Shown one piece after another: positions 10,195 to 58,108 of a DNA stretch of 64,000 nt. Position numbers and translations under genes: made by a program. The stretch comes from Escherichia coli. Its GTDB lineage: Bacteria; Pseudomonadota; Gammaproteobacteria; Enterobacterales; Enterobacteriaceae. The stretch is taken from the NCBI RefSeq assembly GCF_030013205.1, contig NZ_CP122648.1, one strand, 5' to 3'. The notes beneath the pieces are model-generated. The model saw nothing but the letters and a program-made list of their open reading frames with translations, was not told the origin of the DNA and searched no databases. The number at the start of each line of letters is the position of its first letter. The stretch's first letter is position 1.

Positions 10195-10300
10195 TATCGA
10201 TGCCGGATGCGGCGCGAACGCCTTATCCGGCCTACAAAAGTTTGCAAATTCAATAAATTGCAGAATTCACGTAGGCCTGATAAGCGAAGCGCATCAGGCA
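10195..10300. repeat. REP element cluster (BIME-like) between pfkA and sbp
   Basis: Two REP-type palindromes (gatgccggatgcggcg...ccttatccggcctac; gtaggcctgataagcgaagcgcatcaggca). Confidence 0.55.
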
Positions 10301-33639: not shown

Positions 33640-33735
33640 GCATTTGTAGGCAGGATAAGGCGTTTACGCCGCATCCGGCATTTGAGCAGGATGCCTGATG
33701 CGACGCTGATAGCGTCTTATCAGGCCTACACTCCG
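33640..33735. repeat. REP element(s) between cpxA and yiiM
   Basis: gcaggataaggcgtttacgccgcatccggca / gatgcctgatgcgacgctg...cttatcaggcctac palindromes. Confidence 0.5.
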
Positions 33736-48624: not shown

Positions 48625-50372
48625 TGCTAAACGAACGCCAGTTAAAGATTGTCGATCTGCTGGAGCAACAGCCACGCACGCCTGGCGAGCTGGCGCAACA
48701 GACTGGCGTTTCTGGTAGGACCATTCTGCGTGATATTGACTATCTCAACTTTACCCTTAACGGCAAAGCCCGCATTTCCGCCAGTGGCAACGCGGGCTAT
48801 CAGCTGGAAATCTTCGAGCGCCGCAGCTTTTTTCAGTTGCTGCAAAAGCACGATAACGACGATCGGCTGCTGGCGCTGCTATTACTGAATACCTTCACTC
48901 CCCGTGCGCAACTCGCCTCGGCGCTTAATTTGCCAGAAACGTGGGTAGCAGAGCGCCTGCCCCGCCTGAAACAGCGCTATGAACGCGGTTTTTGTCTCGC
49001 TAGTCGCCCTGGTTTGGGCCATTTCATTGATGAGACAGAAGAGAAACGCATTATTTTGCTGGCGAATCTTTTACGCAAAGATCCGTTTTTAATTCCTCTG
49101 GCGGGCGTAACACGAGACAACCTTCAGCAATTATCCACGGTCTGCGACAACCAACACCGCTGGCCGCTGATGCAGGGTGATTATCTCTCCAGCCTGATTC
49201 TGGCGATTTACGCCCTGCGTAATCAACTGACCGATGAGTGGCCGCAATATCCCGGTGACGAGATAAAACAAATCGTTGAACAAAGCGGCCTGTTTCTTGG
49301 TGATAACGCTGTAAGAACCCTGACGGGGTTGATAGAGAAACAGCATCAACAGGCGCAGGTTATTTGTGTCGATAATGTGCTGGCATTGCTGCAAAGGGTG
49401 CCGGGCATTGCGTCATTGAATATTATTGATACGCAACTGGTTGAGAATATTACCGGGCATTTATTACGTTGCCTTGCCGCGCCGGTGTGGATAGGTGAGC
49501 ACCGCCAAAGCAGCATGAATAACCTGAAAGCCGCCTGGCCTGCGGCCTTTGATATGAGTCTGCACTTTATTACGCTACTGCGTGAACAACTCGATATTCC
49601 CCTTTTCGACAGCGATCTGATCGGTTTGTATTTTGCCTGTGCGCTGGAACGGCATCAAAACGAACGCCAGCCGATCATTTTGCTCTCGGACCAGAACGCG
49701 ATTGCCACCATTAATCAGCTCGCCATTGAGCGCGATGTTTTACATTGTCGGGTGATTATTGCCCGTAGCTTAAGCGAACTTGTTGCCATTCGCGAAGAGA
49801 TTGAGCCGTTATTGATCATTAATAACAGCCATTATTTACTGGATGATGCGGTCAATAATTGCATCATCGTAAAAAATATCATTACGGCTGCCGGTATCGA
49901 ACAAATAAAACATTTTCTGGCGACGGCATTTATTCGCCAGCAACCGGAGCGTTTTTTTTCTGCCCCCGGAAGTTTTCATTATTCGAATGTACGTGGTGAA
50001 AGCTGGCAACATATTACCCGGCAAATTTGTGCGCAATTAGTGACGCAACACCACATTACCGCCGATGAAGTACAACGGATCATCGCCCGCGAAAGCGAAG
50101 GCGAAAACCTGATTGTTAATCGTCTCGCCATCCCACATTGCTGGAGCGAACAGGAACGCCGTTTTCGTGGATTTTTTATTACCCTCGCCCAACCGGTTGA
50201 GGTGAATAACGAAGTAGTTAACCATGTGCTGATCGCCTGTGCCGCCGCCGATGCGCGTCATGAGCTAAAAATATTCAGCTATCTGGCAAGCGTATTGTGT
50301 CAGCATCCGGCAGAGGTTATTGCCGGGTTAACAGGATATGAGGCATTTATGGAGTTACTTCACAAGGGGTGA
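48624..50372 (+). CDS. frvR: frv operon transcriptional regulator (HTH plus PRD/EIIA-like domains)
   Basis: 582-aa translation; last gene of the frv cluster. Confidence 0.82.
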   Translation: MLNERQLKIVDLLEQQPRTPGELAQQTGVSGRTILRDIDYLNFTLNGKARISASGNAGYQLEIFERRSFFQLLQKHDNDDRLLALLLLNTFTPRAQLASALNLPETWVAERLPRLKQRYERGFCLASRPGLGHFIDETEEKRIILLANLLRKDPFLIPLAGVTRDNLQQLSTVCDNQHRWPLMQGDYLSSLILAIYALRNQLTDEWPQYPGDEIKQIVEQSGLFLGDNAVRTLTGLIEKQHQQAQVICVDNVLALLQRVPGIASLNIIDTQLVENITGHLLRCLAAPVWIGEHRQSSMNNLKAAWPAAFDMSLHFITLLREQLDIPLFDSDLIGLYFACALERHQNERQPIILLSDQNAIATINQLAIERDVLHCRVIIARSLSELVAIREEIEPLLIINNSHYLLDDAVNNCIIVKNIITAAGIEQIKHFLATAFIRQQPERFFSAPGSFHYSNVRGESWQHITRQICAQLVTQHHITADEVQRIIARESEGENLIVNRLAIPHCWSEQERRFRGFFITLAQPVEVNNEVVNHVLIACAAADARHELKIFSYLASVLCQHPAEVIAGLTGYEAFMELLHKG

Positions 50373-50427
50373 ACTGTGTCGGATGCGCCGCATCCGACAC
50401 TGCATTTATCACCAAAATCAAAAACGT

Positions 50428-51108
50428 TTAACGCAGGCTATTATAGTCATCGACCATTTCGTTGTACTCGCGTAACGCTCGCGGAAATGAGTCGTCGACC
50501 ATCCAGCTTGTGTTTGCATCCTGAAGTTGCTCTTTATCCCAGTCAGAGTACGGAACTTTATCTCTGACGCGGCGAACATATTTTTTAGCCTCGAGTTGAT
50601 ACTGGTCTGCCGAATTAATGAACGAGAAATTCATACCGCCTTTATCCGCTTCTTTGGCCTGCGCCACCAGCGTTTCCAGTTCAGAGACTTTCTTCATTGC
50701 CGCATCAACATCAAACTTCTCTTGCGAAATCAGGTTATTAATTTGTTTCGCTGAAATCATGACTGCCAGAGAGTAGTAGTGGAATGTTTTCCCTTCTCTT
50801 TGTTCAATATTTTTCAGTTCCGCAAGCTGGCGCTTATCGTTAATTTCCTGAATCGCCGCATGATAAGATTCTGCTACAGGTTCAAAGGCTTCAAGATTTT
50901 TTAAGAATGTCTGGTGCAGCGTTTTCCCTTTCGCAAACGCATCGTCTTTATAATTTTCCTGGGTGTAATATTTATCCATTTCGTTAATGGTATTACCCAA
51001 CGCCACGGCAGTATCAATATAACTTACCGCCACGCCATCAATAGGTTGCAGCGCAGGCGTTAACGCCACTACACGCGCTTTGTTTATAAATAAAATAATA
51101 AAATTCAC
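50428..51108 (-). CDS. yiiG: conserved protein at the yiiG position
   Basis: 226-aa ORF between frvR and fdhD; function unknown. Confidence 0.55.
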   Translation of the reverse strand: MNFIILFINKARVVALTPALQPIDGVAVSYIDTAVALGNTINEMDKYYTQENYKDDAFAKGKTLHQTFLKNLEAFEPVAESYHAAIQEINDKRQLAELKNIEQREGKTFHYYSLAVMISAKQINNLISQEKFDVDAAMKKVSELETLVAQAKEADKGGMNFSFINSADQYQLEAKKYVRRVRDKVPYSDWDKEQLQDANTSWMVDDSFPRALREYNEMVDDYNSLR

Positions 51109-51157
51109 GAAATGAATAAGTCCTGCAATTTAATATATATCGCAGGACTTATTTTAA

Positions 51158-51991
51158 TTAATTGCTCAAACGCTGCGGATGGGTATAAACCGTTGCCCGA
51201 CCCGGTTTACAAAAACCTACCAGTGTCAGATTACAGCGCTCAGCCACTTCTACAGCAAGCGTGGTCGCGGCAGACACCGCAAACAAAATCTCTACGCCGC
51301 ACATCGCCGACTTTTGCACCATTTCATAACTGGCACGGCTGGAAACCAGTACCGCACCTTGCTGCCAGCTTTCCCCTTCTTGTGACCGGCGGCCTAACAG
51401 TTTGTCCAGCGCCACATGGCGACCCACGTCTTCATGCCCGCCGACCAGTTCGCCAGATGGCAACATCCATGCAGCGGCGTGAGTACAACCAGTCAGTTGC
51501 CCCACTGGCTGGAAATCATTGAGATGACGTAATGCATCATCCAGTTTGTTGAGATCAAACGTCTGGGTGAACGGCAGCGGCTGCACCGGTTTACCGATAT
51601 CGTTAAGCTGTTCTACACCGCATACGCCACAGCCCGTACGTCCCGCCAGCGCCCGGCGGCGCTCCTTCAACCCCATAAAGCGGCGGCTGGAAAGCTCAAT
51701 TTGCACTTCCAGACCATTACAGGAAGGAACGACATCCATACCGAAGATATCGCGCGGACTTTCGATAATCCCCTCGGAAAGCGAAAAACCGAGCGCAAAG
51801 TACTCAAGGTCTTTGGGCGACGCCATCATCACCACATGCGAAATGCCGTTGTAGACCAGCGCAACGGGAACTTCTTCCGCGACCTCATCTAACCGTGGGT
51901 GTTGTAAATCATCACGCCGCCATAACTCAATTTGACGAACACCTGTGACATTTGTCACATTTTCGATTTCTTTTTGCTGTGTTTTTTTCAC
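51158..51991 (-). CDS. fdhD: formate dehydrogenase sulfurtransferase FdhD
   Basis: 277-aa translation [28 protein letters not shown]. Confidence 0.92.
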
Positions 51992-52184
51992 TTTCTCTTA
52001 ACCAGATAAGAACACACACACCAACATTATGGTATTCTGTTACAAACCCTTCCTGGATGGAGGGAAATTGAGCCAATTCTGGACCTTTGCGGCCCCTTCC
52101 GCAAAGAAAAATAACTCCCACTCCCTGCACACGCAGCAAGCGAATGTAAATGGGACGTGACAATGTCGAAACAAGGAGCAATCC

Positions 52185-55100
52185 ATGCAGGTCAGCAGAA
52201 GGCAGTTCTTTAAGATCTGCGCTGGCGGTATGGCAGGCACCACGGCAGCGGCACTGGGTTTTGCACCCAGCGTAGCACTCGCGGAAACCCGGCAGTATAA
52301 ACTGCTGCGCACCCGCGAAACCCGTAATACCTGCACCTATTGTTCCGTAGGCTGTGGGCTGTTGATGTACAGCCTCGGTGACGGAGCAAAAAACGCCAAA
52401 GCATCTATCTTCCATATCGAAGGCGATCCGGATCACCCGGTCAACCGCGGTGCACTTTGTCCGAAAGGCGCTGGCCTGGTGGATTTCATCCACTCCGAAA
52501 GCCGTCTGAAGTTTCCGGAATACCGTGCGCCAGGTTCTGATAAATGGCAGCAAATCAGTTGGGAAGAGGCGTTTGATCGCATCGCCAAACTGATGAAAGA
52601 AGACCGCGATGCTAACTACATTGCGCAAAACGCCGAAGGCGTGACCGTTAACCGCTGGCTCTCCACCGGGATGCTGTGTGCTTCCGCGTCGAGTAACGAA
52701 ACCGGCTATTTAACGCAAAAATTCTCCCGCGCGCTGGGTATGCTCGCGGTCGACAACCAGGCGCGTGTCTGACACGGACCAACGGTAGCAAGTCTTGCTC
52801 CAACATTTGGTCGCGGTGCGATGACCAACCACTGGGTCGACATCAAGAACGCCAACCTCGTCGTGGTGATGGGCGGTAACGCCGCTGAAGCTCACCCGGT
52901 CGGGTTCCGCTGGGCGATGGAAGCCAAAATTCACAACGGCGCGAAGCTGATTGTGATCGATCCTCGCTTTACGCGTACGGCGGCGGTGGCTGACTACTAT
53001 GCCCCTATTCGTTCCGGTACTGACATTGCTTTCCTGTCAGGCGTATTGCTGTACCTGCTGAACAATGAAAAATTCAACCGCGAATACACCGAAGCCTATA
53101 CCAACGCCAGCCTGATCGTGCGTGAGGATTACGGCTTTGAAGATGGCCTGTTCACCGGCTATGACGCGGAAAAACGCAAGTACGATAAATCCTCCTGGAC
53201 TTACGAACTGGACGAAAACGGCTTCGCCAAACGCGATACCACGCTGCAACATCCGCGCTGCGTGTGGAACTTGCTGAAACAGCACGTTTCCCGCTACACG
53301 CCAGATGTGGTTGAAAACATCTGCGGTACGCCAAAAGACGCGTTCCTGAAAGTCTGCGAATACATCGCCGAAACCAGTGCTCACGATAAAACAGCGTCGT
53401 TCCTCTACGCCCTCGGCTGGACGCAACACTCCATTGGTGCGCAAAACATTCGTACGATGGCGATGATCCAGCTGCTGCTCGGCAATATGGGGATGGCTGG
53501 CGGCGGCGTTAACGCCCTGCGCGGTCACTCCAATATTCAGGGGCTGACCGACCTGGGGCTGCTGTCGCAGAGCCTGCCAGGTTACATGACGCTGCCAAGC
53601 GAGAAGCAGACCGATCTGCAAACCTACCTTGCCGCCAACACGCCGAAACCGCTGCTGGAAGGCCAGGTTAACTACTGGGGCAATTACCCGAAATTCTTCG
53701 TCTCCATGATGAAGGCCTTCTTTGGTGATAAAGCGACGGCAGAAAACAGCTGGGGCTTTGACTGGTTGCCGAAGTGGGATAAAGGCTACGACGTCCTGCA
53801 ATACTTCGAGATGATGAAAGAGGGCAAAGTCAATGGCTATATCTGCCAGGGCTTTAACCCGGTTGCCTCATTCCCGAACAAAAACAAAGTGATCGGCTGT
53901 CTGTCGAAACTGAAGTTCCTCGTGACCATCGACCCGCTGAACACTGAAACCTCTAACTTCTGGCAGAACCACGGTGAACTGAACGAAGTTGACTCGTCGA
54001 AGATCCAGACCGAAGTGTTCCGTCTGCCATCGACCTGCTTCGCGGAAGAGAACGGTTCAATCGTCAACTCTGGTCGCTGGTTGCAGTGGCACTGGAAAGG
54101 TGCGGACGCCCCGGGGATTGCGCTGACTGACGGCGAGATCCTCTCCGGTATCTTCCTGCGCTTGCGCAAGATGTATGCCGAACAGGGTGGCGCGAACCCG
54201 GACCAGGTGCTGAACATGACCTGGAACTACGCCATTCCGCATGAGCCATCTTCAGAAGAAGTGGCGATGGAGAGTAACGGTAAGGCGCTGGCCGATATTA
54301 CCGATCCGGCAACCGGTGCGGTTATCGTCAAGAAAGGCCAACAACTTAGCTCGTTCGCCCAACTGCGCGATGACGGTACAACCTCCTGTGGCTGCTGGAT
54401 TTTCGCCGGTAGCTGGACGCCAGAGGGCAACCAGATGGCACGCCGTGATAACGCCGATCCGTCTGGCCTCGGTAACACGCTGGGCTGGGCATGGGCATGG
54501 CCGCTTAACCGCCGTATTCTGTATAACCGCGCCTCCGCAGATCCGCAGGGTAACCCGTGGGATCCGAAGCGTCAGTTGCTGAAATGGGACGGCACTAAGT
54601 GGACCGGCTGGGATATTCCGGACTACAGCGCAGCGCCTCCGGGCAGCGGTGTTGGGCCGTTTATCATGCAGCAGGAAGGCATGGGGCGTCTGTTTGCCCT
54701 CGATAAGATGGCGGAAGGTCCGTTCCCGGAACACTACGAGCCGTTTGAAACGCCGCTGGGAACTAACCCGCTGCATCCAAACGTTATCTCGAACCCGGCT
54801 GCACGTATCTTTAAAGACGACGCCGAAGCGTTGGGTAAAGCCGATAAGTTCCCGTATGTCGGAACCACCTATCGTCTGACCGAGCACTTCCACTACTGGA
54901 CCAAACACGCGCTGTTGAACGCGATTTTGCAACCAGAGCAGTTTGTGGAAATCGGTGAGTCGCTGGCGAATAAACTTGGCATTGCCCAGGGCGATACCGT
55001 GAAAGTCTCCTCCAACCGTGGCTATATCAAAGCCAAAGCGGTGGTGACCAAACGTATTCGCACGCTGAAAGCGAACGGCAAAGATATCGATACCATCGGT

Positions 55101-55235
55101 ATTCCGATTCACTGGGGCTATGAAGGTGTTGCGAAAAAAGGCTTTATTGCCAACACGTTAACGCCATTCGTCGGTGATGCGAACACGCAGACGCCAGAGT
55201 TTAAGTCCTTCCTTGTGAATGTGGAAAAGGTGTAA
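52185..55235 (+). CDS. fdoG: formate dehydrogenase-O major subunit, selenocysteine at in-frame UGA 52770-52772, Tat signal
   Basis: ORFs 52185-52772 and 52821-55235 share one frame and are split only by TGA; RRQFFK twin-arginine motif; Mo-bisPGD enzyme family. Confidence 0.94.
52773..52815 (+). ncRNA. SECIS hairpin directing Sec insertion (mRNA element within fdoG)
   Basis: Stem-loop-capable sequence (ggtagcaagtcttgctcc...) immediately 3' of the UGA. Confidence 0.5.
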
Positions 55236-55247
55236 CGGAGACGACAT

Positions 55248-56150
55248 ATGGCTTATCAATCGCAAGATATCATTCGTCGTTCCGCGACTAACGGTCTGAC
55301 CCCCGCGCCTCAGGCGCGGGACTTCCAGGAAGAAGTGGCGAAACTCATCGACGTCACCACCTGTATCGGCTGTAAAGCCTGTCAGGTGGCGTGTTCAGAG
55401 TGGAACGACATTCGCGATACCGTCGGCAATAACATTGGGGTGTACGACAACCCCAATGATTTAAGCGCCAAATCGTGGACGGTAATGCGCTTCTCGGAAG
55501 TGGAACAGAACGACAAACTGGAATGGCTGATCCGCAAAGACGGCTGTATGCACTGTTCCGATCCAGGCTGCCTGAAAGCGTGCCCGGCGGAAGGAGCAAT
55601 TATTCAGTATGCCAACGGTATCGTCGACTTCCAGTCCGAGCAGTGCATCGGCTGCGGTTATTGCATTGCGGGCTGTCCGTTCGACATTCCGCGCCTCAAC
55701 CCGGAAGACAACCGCGTCTACAAATGTACGCTGTGCGTTGACCGCGTGGTGGTTGGGCAAGAACCAGCCTGCGTGAAGACCTGCCCAACGGGCGCGATTC
55801 ACTTCGGTACGAAAGAGTCGATGAAAACGCTGGCGAGCGAGCGCGTGGCGGAGCTGAAAACTCGCGGTTACGACAATGCGGGTCTGTACGATCCGGCAGG
55901 CGTTGGTGGTACACACGTTATGTACGTGCTGCACCATGCTGACAAGCCAAATCTGTATCATGGCTTGCCGGAGAACCCGGAAATCAGCGAAACCGTGAAA
56001 TTCTGGAAAGGCATCTGGAAACCGCTCGCAGCTGTTGGCTTTGCGGCTACCTTCGCAGCCAGTATCTTCCACTACGTGGGTGTCGGTCCGAACCGTGCGG
56101 ATGAGGAAGAGAATAATCTGCACGAAGAGAAAGACGAGGAGCGCAAATGA
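55248..56150 (+). CDS. fdoH: formate dehydrogenase-O iron-sulfur subunit
   Basis: 300-aa translation with multiple CxxCxxCxxxCP ferredoxin motifs. Confidence 0.94.
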
Positions 56151-56782
56151 AACGACGTGACACCATCGTGCGCTACACCGCGCCGGAACGTATCAACCAC
56201 TGGATCACCGCCTTCTGCTTCATCCTGGCGGCGGTGAGCGGGCTGGGCTTTTTGTTCCCGTCCTTCAACTGGTTGATGCAAATCATGGGCACACCGCAGC
56301 TGGCGCGAATTCTGCACCCGTTTGTCGGCGTGGTTATGTTTGCCTCGTTCATCATCATGTTTTTCCGTTACTGGCATCACAACCTAATCAATCGGGATGA
56401 TATCTTTTGGGCGAAGAATATTCGTAAGATCGTCGTCAACGAGGAAGTAGGTGACACCGGGCGTTATAACTTCGGTCAGAAATGCGTTTTCTGGGCGGCG
56501 ATTATTTTCCTGGTTCTGCTGCTGGTGAGCGGCGTGATTATCTGGCGTCCTTATTTTGCGCCTGCTTTCTCAATCCCGGTGATCCGATTCGCGTTAATGC
56601 TGCATTCATTTGCCGCAGTGGCGTTAATTGTGGTTATCATGGTGCATATCTACGCCGCCCTTTGGGTGAAAGGCACGATTACCGCCATGGTGGAAGGATG
56701 GGTTACCAGCGCCTGGGCGAAGAAACATCACCCGCGCTGGTACCGTGAGGTCCGCAAGACAACGGAAAAGAAAGCTGAATGA
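56147..56782 (+). CDS. fdoI: formate dehydrogenase-O cytochrome b556 subunit
   Basis: 211-aa membrane protein; start overlaps the fdoH stop. Confidence 0.93.
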
Positions 56783-57708
56783 GTATTCGCATAATCCCGC
56801 AAGATGAGCTGGGTTCGAGCGAGAAACGTACGGCGGATATGATTCCGCCGTTATTGTTCCCTCGGCTCAAGAATTTATACAACCGCCGCGCCGAGCGTCT
56901 GCGCGAGCTGGCAGAAAATAATCCGCTGGGTGATTACCTGCGCTTTGCTGCGCTTATCGCCCACGCCCAGGAAGTGGTGCTGTACGACCATCCGCTGGAG
57001 ATGGATCTGACTGCACGCATTAAAGAAGCCAGCGCACAGGGCAAGCCCCCGCTGGATATTCACGTTCTGCCGCGTGATAAGCACTGGCAAAAGCTGCTGA
57101 TGGCGCTAATTGCTGAGCTGAAACCTGAAATGAGCGGCCCGGCGCTGGCAGTGATTGAGAATCTGGAGAAGGCATCGACTCAGGAGCTGGAAGATATGGC
57201 CAGCGCACTGTTTGCCTCTGATTTCTCATCCGTCAGTAGCGATAAAGCGCCGTTTATCTGGGCTGCACTGTCGCTCTACTGGGCGCAGATGGCCAATCTG
57301 ATCCCCGGCAAAGCCCGCGCTGAATACGGCGAACAACGTCAATATTGCCCGGTATGTGGCTCTATGCCTGTTTCCAGCATGGTGCAAATTGGCACCACTC
57401 AGGGTCTGCGTTACCTGCACTGCAACCTGTGTGAAACCGAATGGCACGTAGTGCGCGTAAAATGCAGCAACTGCGAGCAGAGCGGCAAACTGCATTACTG
57501 GTCGCTGGATGACGAACAGGCCGCGATTAAAGCCGAAAGCTGCGATGACTGCGGCACTTACCTGAAGATTCTTTATCAGGAAAAAGAACCGAAAGTTGAA
57601 GCCGTGGCAGATGACCTCGCCTCTCTGGTACTGGACGCGCGAATGGAGCAAGAAGGCTATGCTCGTAGTTCCATCAACCCGTTCCTGTTTCCGGGTGAAG
57701 GGGAGTAA
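56779..57708 (+). CDS. fdhE: formate dehydrogenase accessory protein FdhE
   Basis: 309-aa translation with CxxC pairs ([28 protein letters not shown]). Confidence 0.92.
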
Positions 57709-57889
57709 TCTCTGACGTTTTCCGGGTGGCGCAGGTCGCCCGGATTACAGTTCATAGGGTGTGACGACACCATCTCTCTTATTCCGCGTTACCACCTCAA
57801 GCTATGCTGCCAGTGCCTGTTTTGCCTCAATTTTCACACTGAACAAATCGATAACAATATCGATATCAAATAGCCAAATCTTTTTGCCA

Positions 57890-58108
57890 TTACCATTCCT
57901 CGCGCAGCTTACGCTGGTATTCGACACCATCTTCCTCACTCCCTTGCCAGATGCCAAAAGCACTGGCTCTTGCTGTTTGCGATTGATTTACCAGGTATTG
58001 ATCTACCGCTTCCCGTAATAGCTCCGCACGAGGAAGATTATGCTGCACCTCGAGATCATCAAGTTGCTTAAACAACTCATTCGATAAATTGAGTAAAATT
58101 CTGCCCAT
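57890..58108 (-). CDS. yiiF: ribbon-helix-helix (CopG-like) DNA-binding protein
   Basis: Translation from [39 protein letters not shown]; symbol assigned by adjacency to fdhE. Confidence 0.65.

What the first reader, a model, noticed from the sequence alone, without database searches (positions are those of the whole stretch)
52770..52815. In-frame UGA in fdoG with downstream stem-loop: selenocysteine recoding, not a pseudogene
The six-frame track splits fdoG into 195-aa and 804-aa ORFs, but both are in the same frame and separated only by TGA at 52770-52772. This is the position of the catalytic selenocysteine in formate dehydrogenase-O. The following sequence can form a SECIS-like hairpin.
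Basis: established knowledge. Interest (0 to 1): 0.2.

Follow-up and report, generated by a model that had tools for sequence, protein, structure and literature searches.

The report
Selenocysteine UGA codon in fdoG
The in-frame TGA in this E. coli formate dehydrogenase-O gene is the textbook selenocysteine codon with its downstream SECIS RNA hairpin, so the gene is intact and the finding is correct but ordinary.

Summary
The observation and its interpretation are both correct, and the feature is already known. TGA at 52770-52772 is the only internal stop in one reading frame, 52185-55235 (+). That frame encodes a 1016-aa protein that is 99.8% identical to E. coli K-12 FdoG (b3894) and lies in the fdhD / fdoG-fdoH-fdoI-fdhE arrangement. 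The TGA is codon 196 and aligns with the selenocysteine (X196) of the solved FdnG structure 1kqf. The catalytic partners His197 and Arg446 are conserved. The sequence at 52767-52825 matches Rfam SECIS_3 (RF01989) at 84.3 bits (gathering score 63, E 1.8e-19). It is identical to the K-12 fdoG and fdnG elements. The bulged U17 and loop G23-U24 sit at the same distance from the UGA as in fdhF. In 62 distinct homologous elements from diverse bacteria, the upper helix is 99.8% paired, with compensatory changes at synonymous codon positions. Thermodynamic stability alone is not significant (z = -1.37). The 81-nt region is present in 5425 of 5426 complete E. coli genomes, and so are selAB (selC: 5424). 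The pseudogene reading is rejected. Interest is low.

The parts
52185..55235 (+). fdoG, the formate dehydrogenase-O alpha (catalytic) subunit. It is one 1016-codon reading frame with Sec at codon 196.
   Evidence: Translation shows a single internal TGA. NCBIfam TIGR01553 scores 1574.5 bits against a cutoff of 814.2. Identity is 99.8% to K-12 FdoG, with only I417V and A483T differing. RefSeq annotates one CDS over the identical sequence in strain K_EC180.
52185..52283 (+). Twin-arginine (Tat) signal peptide, 33 aa, with motif S4-R5-R6-Q7-F8-F9-K10, ending ...VALA|E
   Evidence: Read directly from the translation. It aligns residue for residue with the N-terminus of FdnG 1kqf_A. The cleavage site is inferred from established knowledge of FdnG.
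52770..52772 (+). UGA codon 196, decoded as selenocysteine (the catalytic Sec that is a ligand of the Mo centre)
   Evidence: It aligns with X196 of 1kqf_A. K-12 fdoG and fdnG have TGA at the same codon, and fdhF has it at codon 140 in the same ARV*HGP context.
52767..52825 (+). SECIS element (extent of the Rfam SECIS_3 match). The hairpin proper spans about 52773/52775-52815.
   Evidence: cmscan gives 84.3 bits (GA 63), E 1.8e-19, model positions 1-59 of 59. It is identical to K-12 fdoG and fdnG. The 81-nt region is present in 5425 of 5426 E. coli genomes.
52784..52801 (+). Apical mini-helix GGUAGCAAGUCUUGCUCC, the presumed SelB-binding part. It has a bulged U17 (52786) and loop G23-U24 (52792-52793).
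   Evidence: These nucleotides sit at the same distances from the UGA as in fdhF. The helix is 99.8% paired over 62 distinct homologues, with compensatory changes at pairs 21:33 and 24:30. SelB binding is inferred from literature on fdhF, not shown here.
55248..56150 (+). fdoH, the Fe-S beta subunit
   Evidence: TIGR01582 scores 478.7 bits. RefSeq annotates it as fdoH.
56147..56782 (+). fdoI, the cytochrome b556 gamma subunit
   Evidence: NF007924 scores 453.3 bits, against 243.6 bits for the FdnI model. This supports FDH-O rather than FDH-N.
56779..57708 (+). fdhE, formate dehydrogenase accessory protein
   Evidence: NF002925 scores 604.1 bits.
51158..51991 (-). fdhD, the sulfurtransferase needed for FDH cofactor sulfuration, transcribed divergently from fdoG
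   Evidence: TIGR00129 scores 340 bits. RefSeq annotates it as fdhD.

Best explanation
This is the standard bacterial selenocysteine recoding site of E. coli fdoG. During translation of the fdoGHI-fdhE mRNA, the coding sequence just 3' of UGA196 folds into the SECIS hairpin. The specialised elongation factor SelB, carrying GTP and Sec-tRNA(Sec), binds the apical stem-loop through its C-terminal domain. The contacts are the bulged U17 and the loop G23-U24, positioned 11 nt after the UGA. SelB delivers Sec-tRNA(Sec) to the A site in competition with release factor 2, and translation continues to give the full 1016-aa Tat-exported catalytic subunit. In that subunit Sec196, with His197 and Arg446, forms the formate-oxidising Mo-bisMGD active site.

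Shown here: the frame, the position of the UGA at the structural Sec site, the SECIS match, helix covariation, conservation across the species, and near-universal presence of selAB and selC in E. coli.

Inferred from published work on fdhF and fdnG: SelB binding, competition with RF2, and the chemistry of the active site.
For: There is a single in-frame TGA, and the two ORFs share a frame. Codon 196 lies opposite X196 (Sec) of FdnG 1kqf_A, and H197 and R446 are conserved in the same alignment. Rfam SECIS_3 scores 84.3 bits against GA 63, E 1.8e-19, and is the only such hit in the window. The 66 nt around the UGA are identical to K-12 fdoG. U17 and G23-U24 are in register with fdhF. Between the fdoG and fdnG paralogues (75% nt identity) the longest identical run is 71 nt and starts 3 nt before the UGA. 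All 17 degenerate same-residue codons at 197-214 are identical, against 58.9% gene-wide. The upper helix is 99.8% paired in 62 distinct elements from Gamma-, Beta-, Alpha- and Deltaproteobacteria and others. Its compensatory changes (GC/AU/GU and AU/CG/GC) fall on third codon positions, and 0 of 500 shuffles reach the observed covariation score. The region is in 5425 of 5426 complete E. coli genomes at 95% identity or more. selAB are in 5425 of 5426 and selC in 5424 of 5426. Literature: all three E. coli FDHs are selenoproteins and activity is lost in a selC mutant (PMC3160892). The internal TGAs of fdhF, fdoG and fdnG were left unrecoded because they encode Sec (PMC11903333). The SelB-SECIS mechanism is described in PMC8124441.
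Against: Nothing found here contradicts it. There are three limitations. Hairpin stability alone is unremarkable (z = -1.37). The lower helix is only about 86% paired in either of two registers, so its exact pairing in E. coli is unresolved. The window carries none of selA, selB, selC or selD, so their presence in the source genome is inferred from species-wide presence rather than shown.
Confidence: 0.98

Rival explanations
1. fdoG is a pseudogene. The TGA is a nonsense mutation, and only a 195-aa fragment or nothing functional is made.
For: A naive ORF call splits the gene into 195-aa and 804-aa pieces.
Against: K-12 and 5425 of 5426 complete E. coli genomes carry the same region at 95% identity or more. 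The TGA sits at the structurally defined Sec site. The downstream 820 codons are intact and 99.8% identical to K-12. A curated-threshold SECIS follows the TGA. RefSeq annotates one uninterrupted CDS with no pseudogene flag.
Confidence: 0.005
2. The UGA works mainly as a selenium-sensing termination or attenuation point. RF2 usually terminates there, which limits expression of fdoG and, through polarity, of fdoHI-fdhE. On this view Sec insertion is the minority outcome.
For: Competition between SelB and RF2 at Sec-UGA codons is stated in PMC8124441. The extreme conservation of the 59-nt block could reflect more than SelB binding.
Against: Nothing here measures termination frequency. The position is the catalytic residue, so Sec insertion is required for any active enzyme. 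Fdh-O activity is detected in wild type and lost in a selC mutant (PMC3160892). At most this is a secondary consequence of the same mechanism, not an alternative to it.
Confidence: 0.015

Closest known systems
E. coli K-12 fdoG (b3894) Sec196 codon and its SECIS
   Same: The position (codon 196) is the same, and the 66 nt around the UGA are identical. The protein is 99.8% identical, and the fdhD / fdoGHI-fdhE context is the same.
   Different: There are 50 nucleotide substitutions over 3051 nt, and two of them change the protein (I417V, A483T). None lies in gene positions 570-660 around the SECIS.
E. coli fdnG (FDH-N) Sec196 and SECIS; solved structure 1kqf
   Same: It has the same codon number, and the sequence is identical for the 63 nt compared from the UGA onward. 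The identical run between the two genes is 71 nt and starts 3 nt before the UGA. The active-site residues are the same.
   Different: It is a paralogue, 76.9% identical in protein and 75% in nucleotides. It lies in a different locus (fdnGHI, with no fdhD or fdhE nearby) and is nitrate-induced (PMC3160892).
E. coli fdhF (FDH-H) SECIS, the experimentally dissected prototype (Rfam SECIS_2-like)
   Same: The UGA is followed by CAC GGN CC. The bulged U17 and loop G23-U24 are at identical distances from the UGA, and the protein context is ARV-U-HGP.
   Different: The Sec is at codon 140 and the protein is 33.5% identical. The apical stem differs, with U18:A in place of A18:U and a GGUC tetraloop in place of a GUC loop closed by A:U. 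The window element scores only 28.1 bits on SECIS_2 against a GA of 70.

Membership tests
Bacterial SECIS element (Rfam RF01989 SECIS_3) | Covariance-model score at or above the curated gathering score | tested here: met
   84.3 bits against GA 63, E 1.8e-19, a full-length match to model positions 1-59 of 59. The hit was found again in the whole-window scan.
Bacterial SECIS element (Rfam RF01989 SECIS_3) | In-frame UGA immediately 5' of the hairpin, inside a coding sequence | tested here: met
   The UGA is at 52770-52772, the hairpin starts 3-5 nt after it, and both lie within one ORF.
Bacterial SECIS element (Rfam RF01989 SECIS_3) | Apical stem-loop with a bulged U and a G-U in the loop at a fixed distance from the UGA (U17 and G23-U24 in fdhF numbering) | tested here: met
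   U17 is at 52786 and G23-U24 at 52792-52793, the same positions as in K-12 fdhF fetched here. That these nucleotides are the SelB determinants comes from published fdhF work recalled from memory, not from a test here.
Bacterial SECIS element (Rfam RF01989 SECIS_3) | Helix supported by covariation among homologues | tested here: met
   The upper helix is 99.8% paired. Two pairs show double compensatory changes at synonymous sites, and 0 of 500 shuffles reach the covariation score. Slid controls give 26-58% paired against 92% for the structure itself. The register of the lower helix is ambiguous, at 86% paired either way.
Bacterial SECIS element (Rfam RF01989 SECIS_3) | Binding by SelB and selenium-dependent read-through | not testable with these tools
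   This needs biochemical or genetic experiments. Published for E. coli FDHs: activity is lost in a selC mutant (PMC3160892).
Bacterial SECIS element (Rfam RF01989 SECIS_3) | Trans-acting machinery (selA, selB, selC, selD) encoded in the same genome | tested here: inconclusive
   None of it is in the window: there are no tRNA genes. selAB are in 5425 of 5426 complete E. coli genomes and selC in 5424 of 5426. The source genome of the window is not known, and selD was not checked.
FdoG (formate dehydrogenase-O catalytic subunit, Mo-bisMGD selenoprotein) | Family-model match above the curated cutoff | tested here: met
   TIGR01553 scores 1574.5 bits against a cutoff of 814.2. That model does not separate FdoG from FdnG.
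FdoG (formate dehydrogenase-O catalytic subunit, Mo-bisMGD selenoprotein) | Orthology to fdoG rather than fdnG (identity and synteny) | tested here: met
   Identity is 99.8% to K-12 FdoG against 76.9% to FdnG. The gene is flanked by fdhD and by fdoH, fdoI and fdhE. The gamma subunit scores 453 bits on the FdoI model against 244 on the FdnI model.
FdoG (formate dehydrogenase-O catalytic subunit, Mo-bisMGD selenoprotein) | Sec at the catalytic position, with His197 and Arg446 | tested here: met
   The ungapped alignment to 1kqf_A puts the TGA opposite X196. H197 and R446 are identical.
FdoG (formate dehydrogenase-O catalytic subunit, Mo-bisMGD selenoprotein) | N-terminal twin-arginine signal for periplasmic export | tested here: met
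   SRRQFFK occupies residues 4-10 and is followed by a hydrophobic stretch ending in ALA (read directly).

The most novel reading that the evidence does not exclude
The most novel reading still open is that the 59-nt block around UGA196 is under more constraint than SelB binding needs. The block is nucleotide-identical in fdoG and fdnG. It is also identical in 22 loci from Enterobacteriaceae, Yersiniaceae and Morganellaceae, whose flanks keep only about 57-64% of synonymous codons. In these lineages the lower helix appears to pair in a register slipped by one nucleotide from the Rfam consensus, with A12:U45 replacing C12:G44. This could reflect recurrent gene conversion between the paralogues. 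It could also reflect a second function of the lower helix, such as shielding the UGA from RF2 or tuning read-through.
Probability: 0.1. Interest if true: 0.2.

Novelty: already known. Interest (0 to 1): 0.04.

Why it matters
It matters only for correct annotation. Gene callers that do not handle selenocysteine split fdoG into two ORFs or flag it as a pseudogene, so recognising the UGA plus SECIS keeps an intact respiratory enzyme in the gene list. There is no new biology. Selenocysteine recoding in the E. coli fdhF, fdnG and fdoG genes has been established since about 1990 and is curated in RefSeq and Rfam.

Tried and rejected
1. Folding energy as evidence. The MFE of 52770-52815 is -12.7 kcal/mol with z = -1.37, which is not significant, so it was not used as support.

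2. Rfam SECIS_2 (fdhF-type) scores only 28.1 bits against a GA of 70. The element belongs to the SECIS_3 type, not the fdhF type.

3. The pseudogene or strain-specific nonsense mutation reading was rejected on conservation and structural position.

4. I looked for Sec machinery in the window. No tRNA genes (so no selC) and no other SECIS were found.

5. I tested the Rfam and ViennaRNA registers of the lower helix against 62 homologues. Neither is clearly better (86.0% against 85.7% paired), so the question is left unresolved.

6. The first search of solved structures failed because the letter U was not accepted. It was repeated with X at position 196.

7. Caveat on the homologue set. It was collected with a DNA pattern that fixes most of alignment columns 1-23, so invariance there is by construction. 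The covarying columns 21, 24, 30 and 33 were free.

Full report
**Observation.** The window has TGA at 52770-52772. The mechanical ORF list gives 52185..52772 (+, 195 aa) and 52821..55235 (+, 804 aa), and both starts are 0 mod 3. Translating 52185-55235 in one frame gives 1017 codons with a single internal stop, at codon 196, and a terminal TAA. The 804-aa ORF begins 16 codons after the TGA only because the lister starts at the first ATG. The frame itself is open from 52773.

**Identity of the gene.** The joined product, with Cys substituted at residue 196 for the scan, scores 1574.5 bits on NCBIfam TIGR01553 (cutoff 814.2). The downstream ORFs are the formate dehydrogenase beta subunit, the cytochrome b556 gamma subunit and FdhE. 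The gamma subunit scores 453 bits on the FdoI-type model against 244 on the FdnI model. The divergent upstream ORF is FdhD. The 3.3-kb region is 100% identical to several swine E. coli chromosomes and is present in 5425 of 5426 complete E. coli genomes. In strain K_EC180, RefSeq annotates one uninterrupted CDS over it. Against K-12 MG1655 the protein is 99.8% identical to FdoG (b3894), differing only at I417V and A483T. It is 76.9% identical to FdnG and 33.5% to FdhF. The gene is fdoG.

**Position of the TGA.** In an ungapped alignment to the solved FdnG chain 1kqf_A (E = 0, 1902 bits), codon 196 lies opposite the X (selenocysteine) at residue 196, in the motif ARV-X-HGPTVASL. His197 and Arg446 are identical. 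K-12 fdoG and fdnG have TGA at codon 196, and fdhF has it at codon 140 in the same ARV*HGP context.

**The RNA element.** A scan of 50000-58000 against Rfam found SECIS_3 (RF01989) at 52767-52825 (+). The score is 84.3 bits against a gathering score of 63, with E 1.8e-19, over the full model. It is the only SECIS hit in the 64 kb at gathering thresholds. The fdhF-type model SECIS_2 scores only 28.1 bits (GA 70). ViennaRNA folds 52770-52815 into a hairpin of -12.7 kcal/mol, but this is not unusual for the composition: z = -1.37, and 21 of 200 shuffles fold as well. Stability alone would not have established the element.

The 66 nt around the UGA are identical to K-12 fdoG. From the UGA onward they are also identical to K-12 fdnG. 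Counting from the U of UGA, the bulged U17 (52786) and the loop G23-U24 (52792-52793) occupy the same positions as in fdhF. These are the nucleotides that published work on fdhF identifies as SelB determinants. That last point comes from my own knowledge of the literature and was not tested here.

**Is the RNA under selection beyond the protein?** fdoG and fdnG are 75% identical in nucleotides. Their longest identical run, however, is 71 nt (gene positions 583-653) and begins 3 nt before the UGA. The next longest run is 36 nt. All 17 degenerate same-residue codons at positions 197-214 use the identical codon, against 58.9% gene-wide.

A pattern scan of one genome per species, using GCNCGNGTNTGACAYGGNCCNWCNGTNGC, returned 120 loci. 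These gave 74 distinct 59-mers. The 62 of FdnG/FdoG type were aligned without gaps.

- **Upper helix** (columns 18-25 with 29-35): 99.8% paired. Pair 21:33 occurs as GC, AU and GU, and pair 24:30 as AU, CG and GC. All four columns are third codon positions and were not fixed by the search pattern.
- **Controls for the whole structure:** no shuffle out of 500 reached the observed covariation score. Sliding the partners by 1-3 columns drops pairing from 92% to 26-58%.
- **Lower helix:** about 86% paired both in the Rfam register and in the register ViennaRNA prefers for E. coli, which is slipped by one with G47 bulged. Its exact pairing is unresolved.

Twenty-two loci have exactly the window's 59-mer. 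They come from Photorhabdus, Yersinia, Providencia, Moellerella, Citrobacter, Enterobacter, Klebsiella, Pluralibacter and other Enterobacterales. Their 300-nt flanks keep only 57% (862 of 1506) and 64% (1011 of 1583) of synonymous codons. These loci were picked for identity. However, only five other FdnG-type elements from Enterobacterales in the set differ at all, by 1-4 nt.

**Machinery.** The window has no tRNA genes, so selC is not in it. K-12 selB-selA DNA is found in 5425 of 5426 complete E. coli genomes, and selC in 5424 of 5426. selD was not checked. The source genome of the window is unknown, so presence of the machinery there is inferred.

**Literature.**
- PMC3160892 states that all three E. 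coli formate dehydrogenases contain selenocysteine, that Fdh-N and Fdh-O activity is lost in a selC mutant, and that fdoG encodes the Fdh-O catalytic subunit. It cites Berg et al. 1991 for UGA as Sec in fdnG, and Abaibou et al. 1995 for the fdo locus.
- PMC11903333 left the internal TGAs of fdhF, fdoG and fdnG unrecoded because they encode Sec.
- PMC8124441 summarises the SelB-SECIS mechanism and the competition with RF2.

**Mechanism.** The SECIS hairpin forms in the coding sequence 3' of UGA196. SelB carrying GTP and Sec-tRNA(Sec) binds the apical stem-loop and decodes the UGA as Sec in competition with RF2. The full-length Tat-exported FdoG then carries Sec196 at the Mo-bisMGD active site. 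The frame, the position, the SECIS match, the covariation and the conservation are shown here. SelB binding, RF2 competition and catalysis are inferred from published work on the paralogues.

**Rivals.** The pseudogene reading is rejected because of species-wide conservation, the structural position of the codon, the intact downstream frame and the SECIS. The idea that the UGA acts mainly as a selenium-dependent terminator cannot be excluded quantitatively. At most it is a side effect of the same mechanism.

**Verdict.** The feature is already known and curated, so interest is low. The only loose ends are the register of the lower helix and the unusually frozen 59-71-nt block shared by fdoG and fdnG.

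Noticed in passing
window 52185-55235 (RefSeq records such as NZ_CP062203.1): RefSeq/PGAP names this gene 'fdnG: formate dehydrogenase-N subunit alpha' in every non-K-12 E. coli record listed. It is nevertheless the fdoG orthologue and lies next to genes named fdoH and fdoI. The naming model TIGR01553 does not separate the two paralogues.
   Followed up: partly
window 52016-52214 (+): There is a sub-threshold Rfam match to FdoG1_thermometer (RF02778, an fdoG 5' UTR RNA thermometer) at 32 bits against GA 50, E 5e-5. Only the 3' part, around the Shine-Dalgarno sequence and start codon, aligns well, while the 5' helices are poorly matched. This may be no more than homology of the fdoG leader and start region.
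   Followed up: no
window ~51062-51069 (junction); yiiG remnant 50428-51069 (-): Relative to K-12, about 470 bp (K-12 4086946-4087415) are missing between fdhD and yiiG. The deletion removes the first ~138 codons of yiiG, and the two alignments overlap by 8 nt at the junction. RefSeq flags yiiG as a pseudogene missing its N-terminus in the identical strain K_EC180.
   Followed up: partly
window 52767-52837 and K-12 fdnG (L003): fdoG and fdnG share a 71-nt run of perfect identity starting 3 nt before the UGA, twice as long as any other identical run between the paralogues. The same 59-mer is identical in 22 loci across three families of Enterobacterales. RNA-level selection explains this, and gene conversion between the paralogues is not excluded.
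   Followed up: partly
window 52773-52815: The lower SECIS helix fits two registers about equally well across homologues. Sequences with A at column 12, including E. coli, mostly have U at column 45, giving A:U in a register slipped by one relative to the Rfam consensus. Most other sequences have C12:G44 in the Rfam register.
   Followed up: partly
window 33649-33726 (+) and 10237-10278 (+): Two Rfam hits are above gathering score: naRNA4/CssrE (78.6 bits), a nucleoid-associated REP-derived RNA, and ES036/CssrF sRNA (50 bits). Neither is related to the finding.
   Followed up: no
E. coli genome collection: One of the 5426 complete E. coli genomes has no match to the fdoG/fdnG region, and one has no match to selAB. 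Two lack selC. I did not check whether it is the same genome that lacks both the selenoprotein genes and the machinery.
   Followed up: no
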